DNA of 8,160 bases. It comes from Candidatus Helarchaeota ASGARD archaeon Hel_GB_B. GTDB lineage: Archaea; Asgardarchaeota; Lokiarchaeia; Helarchaeales; HEL-GB-B. Every line of letters starts with the position of its first letter. Within the stretch, counting starts at the first letter, position 1. Both the position numbers and the translations under genes were made by a program. The notes below the pieces were generated by a model. It was not told where the DNA came from, made no database searches, and was given only the letters and a program-made list of their open reading frames with translations. Location of the stretch: positions 1 to 8,160 of the forward strand of contig SUPR01000127.1 of NCBI GenBank assembly GCA_005191425.1. The letters run 5' to 3'. This document shows, piece by piece, positions 1,173 to 7,826 of the stretch.

Positions 1173-1739
1173 TCAAATACTACGAACAATTAATTCTTTT
1201 TGAATTGCTTCCACTATTTTTTGTATATTAATCTTAATAATTCCAAGATTATATAGTTCATCCTGTTCCAATAATATTACTACAAAACCAATATAATTTT
1301 CTGAATTATTGTCTATGGTTAAATTTTTTGGAAATGGTAATGGTGAAATAAAAAGTGTGCCTAAATTAGTTTCCAGTAATATTTCTTTAATTTTCACTGA
1401 TGTTATCTGGTCATTTGGCTGATTTTCATATAAGTTGGAACTTGAAAGTGGTCGAAAAACTTCGTCTTTCAAATTATGTGAAATATTAAATAATTGGACG
1501 CCATAAGCTCCCAATACATCAATATCAACATCATCTTTTTGGAATCCTGCTTCAATTAAAAGTCCTGAAATATCAAAAATAGCGCACCTTTTGAAATCTA
1601 GCTCAGATTCGGCCCAATTTAATATCTTTTTAATTTTATTTTCTTTTTCTTCAGATATTTTCTCGTATAATTTATTTAAATTCTGAATTCGACTTAATAA
1701 TTCATCAATATTCGTATTTTTTGCCATAATATAACCCAT
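1173..1739 (-). CDS. Roadblock/LC7 (MglB/LAMTOR-like) domain protein with N-terminal coiled-coil extension, 188 aa (start may be the second ATG at 1727)
   Basis: Roadblock element order is visible: helix (KIKKILNWAESEL), beta hairpin RCAIFDISGLLIEA, long helix DIDVLGAYGVQLFNISHNLKDE, strands IKEILLETNLGTLFISPL and YIGFVVILL, and terminal helix with the N-x-G motif (NLGIIKINIQKIVEAIQKEL, compare the generic NLGLVRLEMRRLAEKL). Confidence 0.72.
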   Translation of the reverse strand: MGYIMAKNTNIDELLSRIQNLNKLYEKISEEKENKIKKILNWAESELDFKRCAIFDISGLLIEAGFQKDDVDIDVLGAYGVQLFNISHNLKDEVFRPLSSSNLYENQPNDQITSVKIKEILLETNLGTLFISPLPFPKNLTIDNNSENYIGFVVILLEQDELYNLGIIKINIQKIVEAIQKELIVRSI

Positions 1740-2066: not shown

Positions 2067-2090
2067 AAATTAATTTTAATTTAAAAACAA

Positions 2091-3491
2091 ATGGAATTAA
2101 AAATGAGCAGAATTGATGATATTGAAGGTTTTTTCAATCCGCGGTCAATTGCAATATTAGGGGCGTCCCGGTCTCCCGCCAAATTTGGAAATGTATTTTT
2201 AAGATCATACCAATTAAGTGGTTTTGAAGGAAATATATATCCTATCAATCCAAATGCGGATGAAATCAATGGGTTAAAAACGTATCCTTCTATTAAAGAC
2301 GTCCCTAATGATGTTGACCTTGCAATAATTTCCACCCATCCAAGGGAAGTATTAAAACTAGTTAAAGATTGTATTGATAAAGGAATTAAACATATTATCA
2401 TATTTTCCGCTGGATTTGGAGAATTAGGAAAAGAAGGTAAAAAGAGAGAAGATCAATTACTTGAAATTATTAAAGGTAGAGCGTCTATAATTGGTCCTAA
2501 TTGTATTGGTATTTATGTGCCTTCTACAAAATTATCATTTTTTCCAGGAATACCATTAATAGAAGGTCCTGTATCTTTTGTTTCTCAATCCGGATTTATA
2601 TGTGCAACAATATCAAGGTGGGGGGCTATACGAGGAATTGGGTTCAGTAAAGTTATTTCTCTCGGAAATTCAGTTGACCTAACTATAAATGATTTTCTAG
2701 AATATTTTGAGAACGACCCTAATACAAAAATTATTAGTATTTATATTGAGGGCGTTAAAGACGGACGGAGATTTGTCGATTTAATAAGACGTATCTCTAT
2801 AAAAAAACCAATAATTATCTGGAAAACCGGTAATACGCCACTGGGAAAACAAGTTATTTCCTCCCACACCGGAAGTATTGGGGGCTCAAAAGAAATATGG
2901 AATAGTATTATTAAGAAAAATAAATTAGCTCAAGTAAGTTCAATAGAGGAAATTTTAGATTACTACCAAATTTTCTTAAATTTAGAACAATTTAAAAATA
3001 TTGGACAAAAAATCTGCCTAATAGCATCACAAGGAGGATTAATTTCTAATACTACGGACATCTTTGAAGAAAATGGATTGAAATTTGCAAATTTAAGTCC
3101 TTCCACTATAGACAAATTGAAACAAATAATTCCCGATTATGGTACTAACGTTGTCCCGAATATGCCTATTGATATTAGTATAGCAGCCGCGCTTGATATG
3201 GATTTATATGTGAGAGTTGCAAAAGTTGCTATAAATGACCCCAACGTAGATATTCTAATTATTCTAGGCTCTATGGAAATTACTAGTGAATTAACAAAAG
3301 ATCTTTTAAAATTAAAAAATAAGTCCAATAAACCAATTATTTTGGTCCAGCCCGTAATTCCATACCGATTATCAAAATTTGAATTAAAATTGAGAACTAA
3401 TGGAATTTGTGTGTTTTATACAGTAAATAACGCCGTAAAAGCATTATTGGCTTTATTTAGATTTTTAAAACATTCCAAGCAAAATTCATAA
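2091..3491 (+). CDS. ADP-forming acyl-CoA synthetase / acetate-CoA ligase alpha subunit-like protein (AcdA-like), 466 aa
   Basis: CoA-binding Rossmann start FFNPRSIAILGAS and IYPINP; SAGFGE; IIGPNCIG; VSQSG; SLGNSVD; YIEG; phospho-histidine motif SSHTGSIGG (His259); second flavodoxin-like ligase domain (QGG...GL...NVVPNMPIDI). No ATP-grasp domain. Alternative start ATG at 2103. Confidence 0.9.
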   Translation: MELKMSRIDDIEGFFNPRSIAILGASRSPAKFGNVFLRSYQLSGFEGNIYPINPNADEINGLKTYPSIKDVPNDVDLAIISTHPREVLKLVKDCIDKGIKHIIIFSAGFGELGKEGKKREDQLLEIIKGRASIIGPNCIGIYVPSTKLSFFPGIPLIEGPVSFVSQSGFICATISRWGAIRGIGFSKVISLGNSVDLTINDFLEYFENDPNTKIISIYIEGVKDGRRFVDLIRRISIKKPIIIWKTGNTPLGKQVISSHTGSIGGSKEIWNSIIKKNKLAQVSSIEEILDYYQIFLNLEQFKNIGQKICLIASQGGLISNTTDIFEENGLKFANLSPSTIDKLKQIIPDYGTNVVPNMPIDISIAAALDMDLYVRVAKVAINDPNVDILIILGSMEITSELTKDLLKLKNKSNKPIILVQPVIPYRLSKFELKLRTNGICVFYTVNNAVKALLALFRFLKHSKQNS

Positions 3492-3786: not shown

Positions 3787-5316
3787 TTAATTTTTGAGTT
3801 CTTTTTTCTCTGAAAAATATTTAAAAATAAATATTGAACTTAACCCAAATGCATAAAGGACTATCCAAATACCGTAGTAGGAAAAAGTCGATAAATACCA
3901 GCTTGGTTGATTCATTATAACAAAATTGTGGGCTTCGTTTGTAGTTATATATGTAGCACCTAAACACCAAAGTTGGGAAAATGTTGCAAGAATATCTACA
4001 GTCCATAAATTCACTTTAATTCCCGATTTATAATATGATTTTAAAACATTGAATGGAACGGAATAATGTGAATTGATCATATCATACCCTAATGCTAAGA
4101 ACTCTTGGACGGAAGGAGGGTTTTTCGGATCGATACTCAATGCCGTTATCATATTTGGATAATTATTTTTAACGTAGTTTAGGTTGGTATAATTTCCTGA
4201 AGTTATCCAAACTAAACTTTGGTTAATGCCCGATTTATTTATTGTATATAGCGTTAAATTAAATAATTGAGAATAATATGGATGAGTTTGCGCCGGATAT
4301 TTGAAGTCGACATCTAAAATCAAATTATTATCTCTACAAAAATTCAATACTTCTTCTAAAGTAGGAATTGATACATTTGTTAAATAGTAATTTATCATTG
4401 TTTGATTGATCAAACCTTTTTTAATTGATCCATATGGGTCTCTTTCAACAAACCAAGCACCAGCATTGAGTTTCATTAAATCTGAGAAATTAAAAGAAGA
4501 TGCATCGTCATTTACACGATTGGGAAATACTTTGTCAACATTTGTGGTGCGTTTTAATGTGTCATCATGCATCAAAAATAGCTTACCATCAAGACTTATT
4601 TGAGTGTCTATTTCAATGCCGTTTGCTCCGTGCTCTTTAGCTAATTTCCAAGCAATATATGTATTTTCAGGAGCCAAATGGGATAATCCTCTATGTGCAA
4701 TTAGTTTTGGTTTCGGTGGAATTTGGTCAGTAACATTTGGTGGGACGACTAAAAATGGGAGAATAAAAGCAATGATGTAACCTATAATAATTAAACTAAG
4801 GAATGTTATACCTTTAATTTTGTGATAACTGGCTGTTTTTGTAAATTTTCTAAATTTATTGTAGATTGTAGGAATAATACTTATTAGAATTACAATTAAA
4901 ATCATGTAGATAATGATTATATTGTCCATAATTAATGACCCAATTATTGCTGCTTCCTCTCCGAATAAAACTATTAAAATTATCAGTAAAAAATCAAAAA
5001 ATGCCAGAAAAATTATTGATACGACTTTATTAACAATATGTGGTTTTACTTTTTTCGACCGGATTAATTGAATCAAGCTTAAAATGATTATTATCCCGGA
5101 GTATATCAAAGGTATCGAAATTATTAAAATTAAAATATATACGAAATTTATTTGTAATGTCCCGACCATATCACCCAAATAATAGTTAAAATCTGCCCAT
5201 AGAGGTTCAATGGCTAAAACTAATAATTCAATGATTAATATATTAAAAAATGTTATTATAAAAAAAATTAGCCATCCAAATTGTCTCTTAACATTATTTG
5301 AATTTTCTTTTTTCAT
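3787..5316 (-). CDS. Six-transmembrane glycerophosphodiester phosphodiesterase (GDE2/GDE3/GDE6-like), 509 aa
   Basis: GDPD motifs LIAHRG (H208/R209), APENT, GIEIDTQIS (E235/D237), LMHDDTLKRTT (H250), IPTLEEVL, VNLWTVD and ITTN. Five hydrophobic helices precede the domain (about aa 13-36, 56-85, 98-118, 132-152, 169-191) and one follows it (about aa 480-498). The GDPD call is firm; the subfamily call rests on recalled similarity. Confidence 0.92.
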   Translation of the reverse strand: MKKENSNNVKRQFGWLIFFIITFFNILIIELLVLAIEPLWADFNYYLGDMVGTLQINFVYILILIISIPLIYSGIIIILSLIQLIRSKKVKPHIVNKVVSIIFLAFFDFLLIILIVLFGEEAAIIGSLIMDNIIIIYMILIVILISIIPTIYNKFRKFTKTASYHKIKGITFLSLIIIGYIIAFILPFLVVPPNVTDQIPPKPKLIAHRGLSHLAPENTYIAWKLAKEHGANGIEIDTQISLDGKLFLMHDDTLKRTTNVDKVFPNRVNDDASSFNFSDLMKLNAGAWFVERDPYGSIKKGLINQTMINYYLTNVSIPTLEEVLNFCRDNNLILDVDFKYPAQTHPYYSQLFNLTLYTINKSGINQSLVWITSGNYTNLNYVKNNYPNMITALSIDPKNPPSVQEFLALGYDMINSHYSVPFNVLKSYYKSGIKVNLWTVDILATFSQLWCLGATYITTNEAHNFVIMNQPSWYLSTFSYYGIWIVLYAFGLSSIFIFKYFSEKKELKN

Positions 5317-5742: not shown

Positions 5743-6564
5743 ATGAACAGCGTAATTTTTTATTTTTCTCAAGTAATTACGGGTAATACAAAGAAAATAG
5801 CCGAGAAAATTGGAGAAGGATTGAGGTACAATAATAATTCATGCGACCTCATACTTTTAAGAAAAATGAAAAAAGATATTGAAATGATTAAAAGCTTTAA
5901 TTTCGATGATTATGACCTAATTGGAATTGGTGTCCCCGTATATTATTTTCATCCTCCTTATAGTGTTTATCTGACATTGAAAGAATTTCCTATTCTTAAA
6001 AATAAAAAAGGATTCTTATTTTGTACAAGTGGAGGAAACCCAGGGTCTACTCTTTTCCAAATAAAAAAGGTCCTCGATAAAAAAGGTTTAAAAATTATAG
6101 ATGGATATGATAGGTGGAGAGGCTGGGACGTCCATCAGATGTATAGGAATTTCGGTGGATATTTACCTGCTTCTAAAGGACACCCAACACCTGAAGAGCT
6201 AGAAGAAGCCAAAAAATTTGGAATAAAACTTATCGAAAAAGCTAATGACCCAAATGTACCTGAAAAAACAGATTTCTGGACTAAAGAAAATGCTTCAAGT
6301 AAAATGTGGACCTATGAATATATGCAAATCTGGTTTCCGAAACTACCTGGCAAATTTTATGAGGACAGATGTACGCAATGTGGGAGATGTGCTGAAATAT
6401 GTCCAATGGATAAGATTATTTTAAGTCCTTATCCAAAATTCCTTGATATTCCTTGTAATAGATGTTATATTTGCGAATTGATTTGCCCTGAAAAAGCAAT
6501 CGAATGCGATTGGGACAAGCAAATATCATATCTTGAAAATTTGATGAAGAAAAAAAATAAATAA
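5743..6564 (+). CDS. Flavodoxin / 2x[4Fe-4S] ferredoxin fusion (EFR1-type), 273 aa
   Basis: Flavodoxin motifs YFSQVITGNTKKIAE, LIGIGVPVYYF, FLFCTSGG and GHPTPEELEEAKKFG. Two CxxCxxCxxxCP motifs: C210-C220 (CTQCGRCAEICP) and C238-C248 (CNRCYICELICP). Confidence 0.9.
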   Translation: MNSVIFYFSQVITGNTKKIAEKIGEGLRYNNNSCDLILLRKMKKDIEMIKSFNFDDYDLIGIGVPVYYFHPPYSVYLTLKEFPILKNKKGFLFCTSGGNPGSTLFQIKKVLDKKGLKIIDGYDRWRGWDVHQMYRNFGGYLPASKGHPTPEELEEAKKFGIKLIEKANDPNVPEKTDFWTKENASSKMWTYEYMQIWFPKLPGKFYEDRCTQCGRCAEICPMDKIILSPYPKFLDIPCNRCYICELICPEKAIECDWDKQISYLENLMKKKNK

Positions 6565-6635: not shown

Positions 6636-7826
6636 TTATGAAAATCCGAATTCTCTATAGACTTCTCTTTGAATAATAAATTTATGAACATTTATTGTTC
6701 CGCCTCCAATTTCAAGTAATTTACTATCTCTATAATATTTTTCTACAGGATATTCATTCGTATATCCAATTCCACCCAAGATACCAACGGCATCAGTTGC
6801 ATTTTGAGTAGCGGCTTTTGCAGAGAAGTTTTTTGCCATAGCACAAATTTTAGTTGAAGGTATATTACCGATATTATCAAGGCTACGGGCTGCCTGTATA
6901 GTAAGTGCTCTTGATGCTTCAACTCTTATAGCCATATCTGCAATATTAAAACTAATACCTTCAAAAAATCTAATATGCATTCCAAATTGAATTCTTTCTT
7001 GACTATATTTAACTGCTTCCTCAAATGCAGCTCTGGCTACGCCTACTCCTTGTGCTGCAATACAACACCTCTCAGAATTCAGTTCGGACATCAAAATATG
7101 AAATCCATGATTTTCTTTCCCTAAAAGATTCTCTTTGGGGACAGCTACATCTTCAAATATTAAGTGTCCGACCGCGGTACCTTTAAGTCCGCATAAATTA
7201 AATCTCTTTTTTACTTTAAATCCTTTCGTCTTAGTTTCAATAATAAAGGAACTCATCCCATTTTTTGGGTGGACTTTTGGAAGCGGAGTTGTTATGGCAT
7301 ATAAATTGATAAAATCTGCCTCTGGGCCATTTGTAATAAAACGTTTTTCCCCATTAATTATATAAAAATCACCCTCTTTAACAGCAGTAGTTTTCATCCC
7401 TACAACATCAGATCCAACGGATGGCTCAGTAATTCCAATGCACCCAATTTTCTCACCTTTGATAATTGGACGTAAATATTTTTCCTTTTGTTCCTCAGTA
7501 CCAAACCTCTGTAAAGGCATACCAAACAAGGCTATAGTAGCAATCCTGGAAAGGTCTACTGCAAGACTAACGCGTGCTATTTCTTCAGCTACAATTGTTT
7601 CTCCAATCATACCCATTTCAATCCCACCATATTTTTTTGGATGAAGCGCTCCTAAAATTTTTTCTTTTCCCATTTCTTTAAGTAGCTTTTTTATTGGCTC
7701 ATAATTATTATTTTCTAATTCATTATTAAAAGGCTTTATTCTATTCTCAGCAAATTCATGGACTTTTTCCCTGAAATCTAATTCCTCTTTTGTATAAAAA
7801 ACATTTAATTTTTTAAAATTTTTCAA
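6636..7826 (-). CDS. Acyl-CoA dehydrogenase, isovaleryl-CoA dehydrogenase-like active-site arrangement, 396 aa (TTG start)
   Basis: YGG; FGTEEQKEKYL; GITEPSVGSDV; INGEKRFITNGPEAD; GLKGT; LIFEDVAVP; LNSERCCIAAQGVG; ERIQFG; LGGIGYTNEYPVEKYYRDSKLLEIGGGT. TTG start is supported by SD-like GAGATGAT 6 nt upstream. Confidence 0.95.
   Translation of the reverse strand: MKNFKKLNVFYTKEELDFREKVHEFAENRIKPFNNELENNNYEPIKKLLKEMGKEKILGALHPKKYGGIEMGMIGETIVAEEIARVSLAVDLSRIATIALFGMPLQRFGTEEQKEKYLRPIIKGEKIGCIGITEPSVGSDVVGMKTTAVKEGDFYIINGEKRFITNGPEADFINLYAITTPLPKVHPKNGMSSFIIETKTKGFKVKKRFNLCGLKGTAVGHLIFEDVAVPKENLLGKENHGFHILMSELNSERCCIAAQGVGVARAAFEEAVKYSQERIQFGMHIRFFEGISFNIADMAIRVEASRALTIQAARSLDNIGNIPSTKICAMAKNFSAKAATQNATDAVGILGGIGYTNEYPVEKYYRDSKLLEIGGGTINVHKFIIQREVYREFGFS

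What the first reader, a model, noticed from the sequence alone, without database searches (positions are those of the whole stretch)
3787..5316. Prokaryotic (likely Asgard) full-length homolog of vertebrate six-transmembrane GDE2/GDE3/GDE6 GPI-anchor-cleaving enzymes
Seen in sequence: 5 TM helices, a complete GDPD domain, then 1 TM helix and a short tail. Established: this 5+1 layout with an extracellular catalytic domain defines the vertebrate six-TM GDEs (GDPD5/GDE2, GDPD2/GDE3, GDPD4/GDE6), which shed GPI-anchored proteins and, for GDE3, hydrolyse glycerophosphoinositol/lyso-PI. Typical prokaryotic GlpQ/UgpQ enzymes are soluble or lipoproteins, and the bacterial membrane-domain GDPDs I know lack the TM after the domain. 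From memory of human GDPD5, similarity runs across the whole length, including subfamily-specific inserts: ADFNYYL~DEFNWYL; YSGIIIILSLIQL...KPHIVNK~YIAGLLVLALCHI...NLHWLHK; LPFLVVPP...PPKPKLIAHRG~APLTISSP...GPKPALIGHRG; TLKRTTNVDKVFP..DASSFNFSDLMKLNAGAWFVERDPY~TLRRTTNVEEEFP..PASMLNWTTLQRLNAGQWFLKTDPF; HPYYSQLFNLTL~HPYRSSFINVTL; VNLWTV...FSQLWCLGA...PSWYLSTFSYYGIW~VNLYTV...FSLLWCAGV...PLWIMPPDEYCLMW. Catalytic H208, metal ligands E235/D237 and H250 are intact. Inference: an unrecognised eukaryotic-signature protein, possibly an ancestral ecto-phosphodiesterase acting on inositol-headgroup archaeal lipids or lipid-anchored surface proteins. Archaetidylinositol and glucosaminyl-archaetidylinositol, a mimic of the GPI core, are known archaeal lipids. 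The gene is intron-free and compositionally like its neighbours, which argues against simple eukaryotic contamination.
Basis: partly seen in the sequence, partly recalled or inferred. Interest (0 to 1): 0.9.

Follow-up and report, generated by a model that had tools for sequence, protein, structure and literature searches.

The report
Archaeal six-transmembrane GDE2/3/6-type phosphodiesterase
An Asgard archaeon encodes a membrane enzyme that matches, over its whole length and fold, the animal GDE2/GDE3/GDE6 enzymes that cut GPI anchors, but the same family also occurs in a few Chloroflexota bacteria and the gene tree puts the eukaryotic enzymes next to those bacteria rather than next to the archaea.

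Summary
ORF 3787-5316(-) encodes a 509-aa protein with five TM helices, a complete GDPD domain, one more TM helix and short tails. It belongs to a Helarchaeota (Asgard) genome.

Homology to animal GDPD5/GDPD2/GDPD4 runs over the full length:
- phmmer E 1e-42 to 1e-54.
- BLASTP against elephant GDPD5 gives 1e-48.
- The TM region alone gives 2e-07.
- Foldseek TM-score is 0.77-0.83 over about 500 residues. Every other GDPD matches only the barrel.

The catalytic His/Arg/His and the metal ligands are intact.

The "Asgard eukaryotic-signature protein" reading is only partly supported. The family is patchy in Asgard (63 of 400 genomes) and also occurs in a few Chloroflexota (3 of 401). Among eukaryotes it was found in animals, an ichthyosporean and Archamoebae. 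Outgroup-rooted trees give ((Chloroflexota, eukaryotes), Asgard). AU tests reject an Asgard+eukaryote clade (p = 0.011 and 0.0045).

The most likely function is a metal-dependent ecto-phosphodiesterase acting on membrane-bound glycerophospho head groups. The substrate is unknown. I found no paper describing prokaryotic six-TM GDEs. First readers of this scan flagged look-alikes on two other genomes.

The parts
3787..5316 (-). Whole gene: 509-aa six-TM glycerophosphodiesterase (P0001), stop codon included
   Evidence: ORF list and translation. A 98%-identical protein lies on a 163-kb Helarchaeota contig.
4747..5316 (-). N-terminal membrane domain, residues 1-190: short cytoplasmic tail, then TM1 to TM5
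   Evidence: Hydropathy and AF2 helices. The segments are aligned and hydrophobic in Asgard, Chloroflexota and eukaryote members and absent from soluble GDPDs. This region alone hits the Owenia GDPD5-like protein at 2e-07.
5164..5208 (-). Outer surface helix between TM1 and TM2, residues 37-51, carrying the family motif W..FN.YL (N44)
   Evidence: AF2 helix H37-51. N44 is nearly invariant in all three clans. It pairs with EFNWYL of GDPD5.
3937..4695 (-). GDPD catalytic domain, residues 208-460 (TIM-barrel phosphodiesterase), predicted to face outward
   Evidence: Pfam PF03009, 2.8e-27. The same coordinates come from the whole-genome search. PDB GDPD barrels superpose at TM by target 0.8-0.87.
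4690..4695 (-). H208-R209, the HR motif. The His corresponds to the catalytic His that is mutated in GDE2(H233A) and GDE3(H229A).
   Evidence: Translation. Invariant in all groups. Aligned to LIGHRG of GDPD5. The Foldseek numbering offsets are consistent with H229/H233 of PMC5576486.
4606..4614 (-). E235-x-D237 metal ligands
   Evidence: Invariant in all groups, outgroup included.
4567..4569 (-). H250, the second catalytic His (HDD motif)
   Evidence: Translation. Invariant.
4306..4308 (-). D337, predicted third metal ligand. It is Asp in all six-TM clans and Glu in soluble GDPDs.
   Evidence: Residue table. Aligned to the IEIK Glu of 2pz0.
3793..3888 (-). TM6 and the short C-terminal tail, residues 477-508, with family-specific P471, Y480 and W484 just before and within it
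   Evidence: AF2 helix H477-508. Conservation. Aligned in all three clans.

Best explanation
The gene encodes a real Helarchaeota (Asgard archaeal) integral-membrane glycerophosphodiester phosphodiesterase. It belongs to the same protein family as the eukaryotic six-transmembrane GDEs (GDE2/GDPD5, GDE3/GDPD2, GDE6/GDPD4).

Shown: five TM helices, an outward-predicted GDPD TIM barrel and a sixth TM helix are collinear with the animal enzymes and superpose on them. The acid/base pair H208/H250, R209 and the metal ligands E235/D237/D337 are intact.

Inferred mechanism: a divalent-metal-dependent phosphodiesterase is held on the outer face of the cytoplasmic membrane by a conserved TM bundle. It cleaves a glycerophosphodiester bond in a membrane-associated substrate. 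Candidates are a lipid or lysolipid head group, possibly of the phosphoinositol type, or a lipid-linked surface molecule. Free soluble diesters are less likely. This would make it the stripped-down core of the animal enzymes, without their long regulatory cytoplasmic tails.

Evolution: the family is shared by a patchy set of Asgard lineages, a narrow set of Chloroflexota (Anaerolineae-type) and Amorphea eukaryotes (animals, Ichthyosporea, Archamoebae). The eukaryotic clade is closest to the Chloroflexota clade, not nested in or sister to the sampled Asgard sequences. At least one inter-domain transfer is therefore needed, and simple vertical Asgard-to-eukaryote descent is not the best-fitting history.
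For: Identity and host
- The nearest proteins are from Helarchaeota, Lokiarchaeota and Promethearchaeota MAGs (98%, 66% and 60% identity).
- The gene is present in 63 of 400 genomes of the phylum.
- The genome is 93.7% complete with 4.9% contamination.

Full-length homology
- 136 cluster representatives score below 1e-30.
- The named animal GDPD5/GDPD2 representatives among them score 1e-42 to 1e-54 and are aligned over query residues 3-505.
- BLASTP gives 1e-48 to elephant GDPD5.
- The TM region alone gives 2e-07.

Fold
- The AF2 model has pLDDT 93.9.
- The top eight Swiss-Prot AFDB hits are GDPD5/2/4, with TM by query 0.77-0.83 over 485-525 residues. UgpQ, GlpQ, GDE1 and plant GDPDs match only the barrel, at about 0.4.
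- The ESM Atlas gives the same picture.

Catalytic and family-specific residues.

Topology
- Positive-inside charges.
- All 8 sequons lie in the ectodomain, against about 4 expected (p about 0.03).

Phylogeny
- There are three clans.
- The rooted trees give ((Chloroflexota, eukaryotes), Asgard) with 98*, 97.9/100 and 95.4/94.
- AU rejects Asgard+eukaryotes.
- Position 335 is hydrophobic in Chloroflexota and eukaryotes but D/N in Asgard and the outgroup.
Against: - There is no biochemical data, so substrate, metal and orientation are all predictions.
- No conserved neighbouring gene gives a functional hint.
- The root rests on soluble GDPDs that align only over about 280 catalytic-domain columns.
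- Asgard monophyly is weak (91/64, unresolved). A (Chloroflexota+eukaryote) lineage arising from within Asgard diversity is therefore not excluded.
- The family is far commoner in Asgard (63/400) than in Chloroflexota (3/401). This makes Chloroflexota look like a recipient rather than the source.
- The constrained trees for the PMSF AU test were searched under LG+F+G4 only.
- A simple role in scavenging exogenous glycerophosphodiesters cannot be excluded.
Confidence: 0.8

Rival explanations
1. True eukaryotic-signature protein. The eukaryotic six-TM GDEs descend vertically from the Asgard ancestor of eukaryotes, and the Chloroflexota copies are a secondary acquisition from the eukaryote stem or from an unsampled Asgard lineage close to it.
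For: - The family is widespread and diverse in Asgard, including MAGs labelled Heimdallarchaeota and Kariarchaeaceae.
- The outgroup attaches on the Asgard side, and Asgard monophyly is weak.
- Chloroflexota carriers are rare, 3 of 401.
- Eukaryote members form one clade that spans Holozoa and Amoebozoa.
Against: - A clade of Asgard plus eukaryotes that excludes Chloroflexota is rejected (AU 0.011 and 0.0045).
- Eukaryotes never group with Heimdall-labelled sequences.
- The named eukaryotic members are all Amorphea. No plant, fungal or SAR member was seen among the best 150 representatives.
- The distribution within Asgard is patchy and does not follow named lineages.
Confidence: 0.3
2. Bacterial route. 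An early Amorphea-lineage eukaryote acquired the gene by horizontal transfer from an Anaerolineae-like Chloroflexota bacterium, which had itself obtained it from Asgard archaea sharing anoxic sediments. The Asgard gene would then be a cousin of the animal enzymes, not their ancestor.
For: - The Chloroflexota+eukaryote clade is recovered.
- Chloroflexota and eukaryotes share a derived hydrophobic residue at position 335.
- The eukaryotic distribution is narrow.
- Archamoebae and Asgard/Anaerolineae share anoxic habitats (established knowledge).
Against: - Chloroflexota and eukaryotes are reciprocally monophyletic or unresolved, so the direction of transfer is not shown. The protist P0238 falls outside both with weak support.
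- Only 3 of 401 sampled Chloroflexota carry the gene.
Confidence: 0.35
3. Functional rival. The protein is simply a membrane-tethered GlpQ-like scavenging enzyme that hydrolyses free environmental glycerophosphodiesters for phosphate and glycerol, and the TM bundle is only an anchor.
For: - The catalytic machinery is identical to soluble GDPDs.
- The host lives in organic-rich vent and sediment habitats.
- No lipid-metabolism partner gene is conserved nearby.
Against: - A single helix would be enough for anchoring. Here six helices and specific TM and surface-helix residues (N44, Y72, P187, Y480, W484) are conserved across three domains of life.
- The genome already has an ordinary 231-aa soluble GDPD.
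- The characterised family members act on GPI anchors, lysolipid or GroPIns at the membrane (PMC5576486; abstract of PMC7033719).
Confidence: 0.25
4. Eukaryotic contamination or mis-binning of the contig.
For: None, beyond the eukaryote-like best annotated relatives.
Against: - GC content is about 26-35% throughout the window and the neighbours are prokaryote-type genes.
- A 98% identical copy lies on a 163-kb Helarchaeota contig, and closer relatives occur in dozens of Asgard genomes.
- Identity to animal proteins is only 27-31%.
Confidence: 0.01

Closest known systems
Vertebrate six-transmembrane GDEs: GDE2/GDPD5, GDE3/GDPD2, GDE6/GDPD4
   Same: - Same 5 TM + ecto-GDPD + 1 TM order.
- Collinear sequence similarity, TM2-TM5 and the surface helix included.
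- Full-length fold match, TM 0.77-0.83.
- Same catalytic His (H229/H233 equivalent), Arg and second His, and the same Asp as third metal ligand.
- Shared family-only motifs: FN.YL, HPY, FSxLWC, P.W...Y...W.
   Different: - Only 22-31% identity.
- Cytoplasmic tails are very short (about 14 and 9 aa) against medians of 43 and 28 aa, and up to more than 100 aa, in eukaryotes. Any regulatory function of those tails in the animal enzymes has no counterpart here. The redox-regulated Cys pair and trafficking motifs of GDE2 are recalled from the literature and were not checked here.
- The host has ether lipids on a glycerol-1-phosphate backbone and no canonical GPI-anchored proteome, so the substrate must differ or is unknown.
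- The gene is not nested in the animal clade.
Chloroflexota (Anaerolineae-type) six-TM GDPD proteins, e.g. in Anaerolineales MAGs and MAGs labelled Chloroflexia (L023-L031)
   Same: Same architecture, similar length (about 450-510 aa), short tails and the same conserved residues. Identity is 30-36%.
   Different: - They form a separate, well-supported clan (100/100) that groups with eukaryotes, not with Asgard.
- They are rare in their phylum (3 of 401).
- Position 335 is hydrophobic, as in eukaryotes.
Bacterial GPDPase_memb + GDPD proteins (PF10110, mainly Bacillota)
   Same: A polytopic membrane domain fused to a GDPD domain.
   Different: - P0001 has no PF10110 match.
- The fold match is only TM about 0.5 over 329 residues.
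It is a different membrane module.
Soluble or lipoprotein GDPDs (UgpQ, GlpQ, T. tengcongensis GDPD 2pz0)
   Same: The catalytic barrel, the HR...E.D...H machinery and the metal-dependent mechanism.
   Different: - They have no TM bundle.
- The third metal ligand is Glu instead of Asp.
- They lack the HPY and W450 motifs.
- Similarity reaches only E about 1e-17 and covers only residues about 200-465.

Membership tests
Six-TM GDE subfamily (GDE2/3/6) | Six transmembrane helices arranged 5 + 1 around the GDPD domain (definition in PMC5576486) | tested here: met
   Hydropathy, AF2 secondary structure, and column-wise hydrophobicity aligned with eukaryotic members.
Six-TM GDE subfamily (GDE2/3/6) | Sequence homology to GDPD5/2/4 that extends beyond the GDPD domain into the TM region | tested here: met
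   phmmer alignments cover query 3-505 against named animal proteins. BLASTP gives 1e-48. The TM region alone gives 2e-07, collinear.
Six-TM GDE subfamily (GDE2/3/6) | Whole-protein fold match, including the TM bundle | tested here: met
   Foldseek against AFDB Swiss-Prot: the top eight hits are GDPD5/2/4, TM 0.77-0.83 over 485-525 residues. Both sides are predicted models.
Six-TM GDE subfamily (GDE2/3/6) | Catalytic His of the HR motif (GDE2 H233, GDE3 H229) and the metal-binding residues | tested here: met
   H208, R209, E235, D237, H250 and D337 are conserved. They align to LIGHRG of GDPD5. Mutant data are in PMC5576486.
Six-TM GDE subfamily (GDE2/3/6) | Catalytic domain exposed on the outside of the membrane | tested here: inconclusive
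   Only predicted. The positive-inside distribution fits, and all 8 sequons lie in the domain (p about 0.03). There is no experimental topology.
Six-TM GDE subfamily (GDE2/3/6) | Cleavage of GPI anchors, glycerophosphoinositol or lyso-PI | not testable with these tools
   Requires enzyme assays.
Six-TM GDE subfamily (GDE2/3/6) | Placement in one clade with GDE2/3/6 to the exclusion of other GDPDs | tested here: met
   The six-TM proteins of Asgard, Chloroflexota and eukaryotes form one clade against soluble GDPDs (100*, 92.7/87, 98.5/100).
Asgard-derived eukaryotic signature protein | Among prokaryotes, restricted or nearly restricted to Asgard archaea | tested here: not met
   Full-length members occur in Chloroflexota MAGs. 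The MAGs labelled Bathyarchaeia and Deferrimicrobium are Asgard genomes by the genome collection's own grouping.
Asgard-derived eukaryotic signature protein | Eukaryotic sequences sister to, or nested within, Asgard sequences | tested here: not met
   The free trees give Chloroflexota+eukaryotes. AU rejects Asgard+eukaryotes at 0.011 and 0.0045. Nesting of the joint Chloroflexota+eukaryote lineage inside Asgard is not excluded.
Asgard-derived eukaryotic signature protein | Broad eukaryotic distribution consistent with presence in LECA | tested here: inconclusive
   Seen in Metazoa, Ichthyosporea, Archamoebae and two unidentified eukaryote contigs. Only the best 150 representatives could be inspected.
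GPDPase_memb-GDPD (PF10110) bacterial membrane GDPDs | N-terminal PF10110 membrane domain | tested here: not met
   No PF10110 hit at E <= 0.01. The fold match is only TM about 0.5.

The most novel reading that the evidence does not exclude
The six-TM GDE family arose in Asgard archaea and passed from the archaeal ancestor into eukaryotes, with the Anaerolineae copies a side-branch transfer. In archaea the enzyme would already shed or remodel lipid-anchored surface molecules built on inositol-phosphate ether lipids. On this reading the GPI-anchor sheddases of animals continue a pre-eukaryotic surface-remodelling system.
Probability: 0.12. Interest if true: 0.85.

Novelty: new member of a known kind. 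Interest (0 to 1): 0.6.

Why it matters
GDE2, GDE3 and GDE6 are treated in the literature as animal, mostly vertebrate, six-TM ecto-enzymes that shed GPI-anchored proteins. They have roles in neuronal differentiation, ALS-type neurodegeneration and cancer (abstracts listed; PMC5576486).

No full-length structure of the family is in the PDB, and I found no account of its origin. Compact, tail-less, intron-free homologs in Asgard archaea and Chloroflexota would help in three ways:
- They are tractable proteins for structure determination and for mapping how the TM bundle presents lipid-bound substrates.
- They show that the whole architecture predates animals and crosses all three domains of life.
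- They make a concrete test case of how a "eukaryote-like" Asgard protein can fail the phylogenetic test for vertical descent.

If the archaeal enzyme acts on inositol-phosphate lipids or lipid-anchored surface molecules, it would bear on the origin of GPI-type surface biology.

Tried and rejected
- **Profile scan of genome contigs.** The search for related loci with the 62-sequence alignment failed because no stretch was conserved enough. An 8-sequence alignment worked.
- **treekit AU test.** On 78 rows it did not finish in two 300-s runs. I replaced it with my own IQ-TREE constrained searches on 55 rows.
- **More protists.** Word-indexed searches with Mastigamoeba P0201 and with a profile of non-animal eukaryotes returned only Mastigamoeba paralogs, animals and soluble GDPDs. 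No further protist lineages could be named.
- **AFDB cluster search.** Organism names were withheld, so it did not help with taxon range.
- **Synteny.** No neighbouring gene family is shared by 4 or more of 31 loci, but the flanks of L001-L010 were only about 1.5 kb.
- **Expression.** No RNA holder was listed for the gene, so nothing can be said about expression.
- **Literature.** Searches for Asgard+GDPD5, Asgard+glycerophosphodiester, GDE2/prokaryotic/phylogenetic, glycerophosphoinositol inositolphosphodiesterase+archaea and GDPD5/GDPD2+horizontal gene transfer found nothing on prokaryotic six-TM GDEs.
- **Central long branches.** P0239 and P0251, which sat near the centre of the first tree, are not family members. 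P0239 is a bacterial soluble GDPD+DUF309 protein. Both were reused as outgroups.
- **Eukaryotic contamination.** Considered and rejected.
Full report
**1. What is in the sequence**

The window is AT-rich, with GC 0.21-0.37. It holds seven ORFs of 100 aa or more. Six were scanned against Pfam; the seventh is the antisense ORF at 2081-2401.

The finding is the ORF at 3787-5316 on the minus strand, 509 aa (P0001). Pfam places a complete GDPD domain at residues 208-460 (2.8e-27).

Kyte-Doolittle hydropathy finds five hydrophobic spans before the domain and one after it. An AlphaFold2 model built on 62 relatives (mean pLDDT 93.9, pTM 0.90) shows these elements:
- helices 6-35, 58-87, 94-131, 133-159 and 166-189
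- a short helix at 37-51
- the alpha/beta barrel
- a last helix at 477-508

Lys/Arg cluster at the N-terminus, in the TM2-TM3 and TM4-TM5 loops and at the C-terminus. By the positive-inside rule the termini are cytoplasmic and the GDPD domain faces outward.

All eight N-x-S/T sequons lie in that domain. A shuffle expects about 4, p about 0.03.

**2. Whose gene it is**

The closest proteins (98%, 66% and 60% identity) come from MAGs labelled Candidatus Helarchaeota and Lokiarchaeota. The 98% copy lies on a 163-kb contig.

The window's genome is 3.54 Mb, 93.7% complete and 4.9% contaminated.

The Pfam-annotated neighbours in the window are ordinary prokaryotic metabolic genes:
- a PfkB kinase
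- a CoA-binding/succinyl-CoA-ligase-like protein
- a flavodoxin-ferredoxin fusion
- an acyl-CoA dehydrogenase

The DNA is held in hydrothermal-vent and marine-sediment metagenomes.

Eukaryotic contamination is excluded.

**3. Relation to GDE2/3/6**

*Sequence.* An exhaustive phmmer search of 1.84 billion cluster representatives found 136 proteins below 1e-30. Exact look-ups named many of them as animal enzymes:
- GDPD5 or GDPD5-like from elephant, whales, a crinoid, a sea star, Littorina, Tubulanus and Priapulus
- GDPD2 or GDPD2-like from birds, Polypterus and the hemichordate Glandiceps
- uncharacterised GP-PDE-domain proteins from Owenia, Capitella and Ciona

For those named representatives:
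- E-values are 1e-42 to 1e-54 and identity is 27-31%.
- Most alignments begin within query residues 3-16 and run to about 476-505, so they include the membrane region.
- BLASTP against elephant GDPD5 gives 1e-48 over query 42-477.
- The first 200 residues alone still match the Owenia protein collinearly at 2e-07.

*Fold.* The eight best Swiss-Prot AlphaFold models are chicken, human and mouse GDPD5, human and mouse GDPD2, and mouse, macaque and human GDPD4. TM-score by query is 0.77-0.83 over 485-525 aligned residues. UgpQ, GlpQ, GDE1, plant GDPDs and yeast Pgc1 match only the barrel, at about 0.4. The ESM Atlas gives the same ranking. It also shows that the bacterial GPDPase_memb (PF10110) membrane GDPDs are a different module, at TM about 0.5. 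P0001 has no PF10110 hit.

*Solved structures.* The PDB holds only catalytic-domain relatives. No solved full-length six-TM GDE exists to compare with.

[quoted passage not shown] It reports that H229A (GDE3), equivalent to H233 in GDE2, kills activity. By alignment this His is H208 here.

**4. Conserved residues**

In a 55-sequence alignment split into Asgard, Chloroflexota, eukaryote and soluble-GDPD groups:
- H208, R209, E235, D237 and H250 are invariant everywhere.
- The third metal ligand is Asp (D337) in all six-TM clans and Glu in nine of the ten soluble GDPDs of the outgroup.
- N44 (surface helix), Y72 (TM2), P187 (TM5), H345-P346, S447, W450, P471, Y480 and W484 (TM6) are specific to the six-TM family and shared across the three clans.

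All six TM segments are aligned and hydrophobic in all three clans.

Prokaryotic members have short tails (medians 8-14 aa N-terminal, 9-12 aa C-terminal). Eukaryotic members have long ones (medians 43 and 28 aa, up to more than 100).

Conservation of specific TM and juxtamembrane residues across domains of life argues that the bundle does more than anchor the protein.

**5. Distribution**

*Asgard.* The family is in 63 of 400 genomes and 21 of 85 genera. Most carriers are in the window's own class, and some are in other classes. MAGs labelled Heimdallarchaeota and Kariarchaeaceae are among them. Some genomes carry two or three copies, in places in tandem.

*Mislabelled MAGs.* MAGs labelled Deferrimicrobium and Bathyarchaeia correspond by contig number, length and coordinates to genomes G124 and G091. 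The genome collection groups both inside the window's phylum.

*Bacteria.* Full-length members occur only in Chloroflexota, in MAGs labelled Anaerolineales, Anaerolineaceae and Chloroflexia. They are rare there, in 3 of 401 evenly sampled genomes. Other bacteria match only the catalytic domain.

*Eukaryotes other than animals.*
- Chromosphaera perkinsii, an ichthyosporean
- Pelomyxa schiedti and at least four Mastigamoeba balamuthi paralogs
- two metagenomic contigs with eukaryote-type genes: Mob1, Rad21 and ceramidase on one, Glyco_transf_22 and C2orf69 on the other

**6. Phylogeny**

A full-length tree (LG+C20 PMSF, quick search) resolves three clans:
- Asgard, 96*
- Chloroflexota, 100*
- eukaryotes, 93, with the core animal clade at 99*

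Adding soluble GDPDs as outgroup puts the root on the Asgard side and joins Chloroflexota with eukaryotes (98*).

An independent 55-taxon, 501-column analysis (LG+F+G4, 1000 UFBoot) gives:

| Clade | SH-aLRT/UFBoot |
|---|---|
| Chloroflexota+eukaryotes | 97.9/100 |
| Eukaryotes | 95.7/99 |
| Chloroflexota | 100/100 |
| Asgard | 91.2/64 |

Trees constrained to Asgard+eukaryotes or to Asgard+Chloroflexota are worse by 15-16 lnL units. AU rejects them at p = 0.011 under LG+F+G4 and at 0.0045 (Asgard+eukaryotes) and 0.0043 (Asgard+Chloroflexota) under LG+C20+F+G4 PMSF.

A tree of the catalytic domain only, with extra and closer outgroups and extra protists, again recovers Chloroflexota+eukaryotes (95.4/94).

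Position 335 is D/N in Asgard and the outgroup but hydrophobic in both Chloroflexota and eukaryotes. This is a discrete character that agrees with the tree.

Long-branch attraction would pull the long eukaryote branch toward the outgroup, which is not what is seen.

Caveats:
- The outgroup aligns over only about 280 columns.
- Asgard monophyly is weak, so a joint Chloroflexota+eukaryote lineage arising from within Asgard diversity is not excluded.
- The direction of transfer between Chloroflexota and eukaryotes is unresolved.

**7. How it most likely works**

*Shown.* An intact GDPD active site is fused between a conserved five-helix bundle and a sixth helix, with the fold of GDE2/3/6.

*Inferred.* A divalent-metal-dependent phosphodiesterase sits on the outer membrane face. 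H208 and H250 act as acid and base, and E235, D237 and D337 bind the metal. It acts on a membrane-associated glycerophospho head group or a lipid-linked surface molecule, as its characterised relatives do on GPI anchors, lyso-PI and GroPIns.

The genome also has an ordinary soluble 231-aa GDPD, two inositol-1-phosphate synthase homologs and six PIG-L-family genes. Inositol-phosphate lipids are therefore plausible substrates, but nothing links them to this gene.

No conserved neighbour was found.

A plain scavenging role for a tethered GlpQ-like enzyme remains a live rival.

**8. Comparison, novelty and verdict**

The protein passes every testable membership criterion for the six-TM GDE family: architecture, full-length sequence and fold homology, catalytic residues and clade membership. 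It differs in lacking the long cytoplasmic tails and in its host's lipid chemistry.

It fails two criteria for an Asgard-derived eukaryotic signature protein:
- It is not exclusive to Asgard among prokaryotes.
- Eukaryotes are not its sister group.

Public records call these proteins "glycerophosphodiester phosphodiesterase family protein". A few JGI records carry the name "glycerophosphoinositol inositolphosphodiesterase". Automatic pipelines have therefore touched on the similarity. I found no paper that describes prokaryotic six-TM GDEs.

First readers of this scan noted look-alikes on two other genomes. Those notes are unchecked.

I class it as a new member of a known kind, from an unreported domain of life. 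Its value is for structural work and for understanding the origin of the family. The strong evolutionary claim attached to it is weakened by the tree.

Noticed in passing
window 1173-1739 (-): A 188-aa ORF with no Pfam hit at E <= 0.01. Another first-reader note (e1-5392963) calls it an enlarged Roadblock/LC7 protein. I did not test that.
   Followed up: no
window 2091-3491 (+), 5743-6564 (+), 6636-7826 (-): A CoA-binding/Succ_CoA_lig protein (like the alpha subunit of ADP-forming acyl-CoA synthetase), a flavodoxin plus 2x[4Fe-4S] fusion and an acyl-CoA dehydrogenase flank the gene. This is an acyl-CoA metabolism neighbourhood. It is not conserved next to homologs elsewhere.
   Followed up: partly
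window 2081-2401 (-): A 106-aa ORF lies antisense to, and almost wholly inside, the 5' end of the CoA-binding gene. It is probably spurious.
   Followed up: no
G000:C175:8103-8759 (L094): The same genome also encodes an ordinary soluble 231-aa GDPD, with a stronger Pfam score than the six-TM one.
   Followed up: no
G268:C42:26531-28021 and 28206-29690; G255:C45; G135 (three matches): Some Asgard genomes carry two or three copies of the family, in places as tandem neighbours.
   Followed up: no
L012 (DATKTP010000235.1), L018 (DATKZI010000044.1), L022 (DATKTW010000045.1): SMAG-catalogue MAGs labelled Deferrimicrobium, Bathyarchaeia and Nanopelagicaceae carry Asgard-type copies. The first two coincide with contigs of genomes that the genome collection places in the window's order and phylum, so the NCBI organism labels look wrong.
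   Followed up: partly
P0129, P0201, P0286, P0287 (Mastigamoeba balamuthi): This archamoeba has at least four paralogs. P0129 is 886 aa with three matched stretches and is the best eukaryotic hit to the window protein (2e-80). It may be a fused or duplicated gene model.
   Followed up: no
G627:C20:16955-18292: One Chloroflexota match lies in an open frame of 2034 aa. It may be a fusion protein or a long read-through.
   Followed up: no
L092 5001-6383 (P0239): A bacterial soluble GDPD fused to DUF309 is among the closest non-TM relatives of the catalytic domain. It may be useful as a nearer outgroup.
   Followed up: partly
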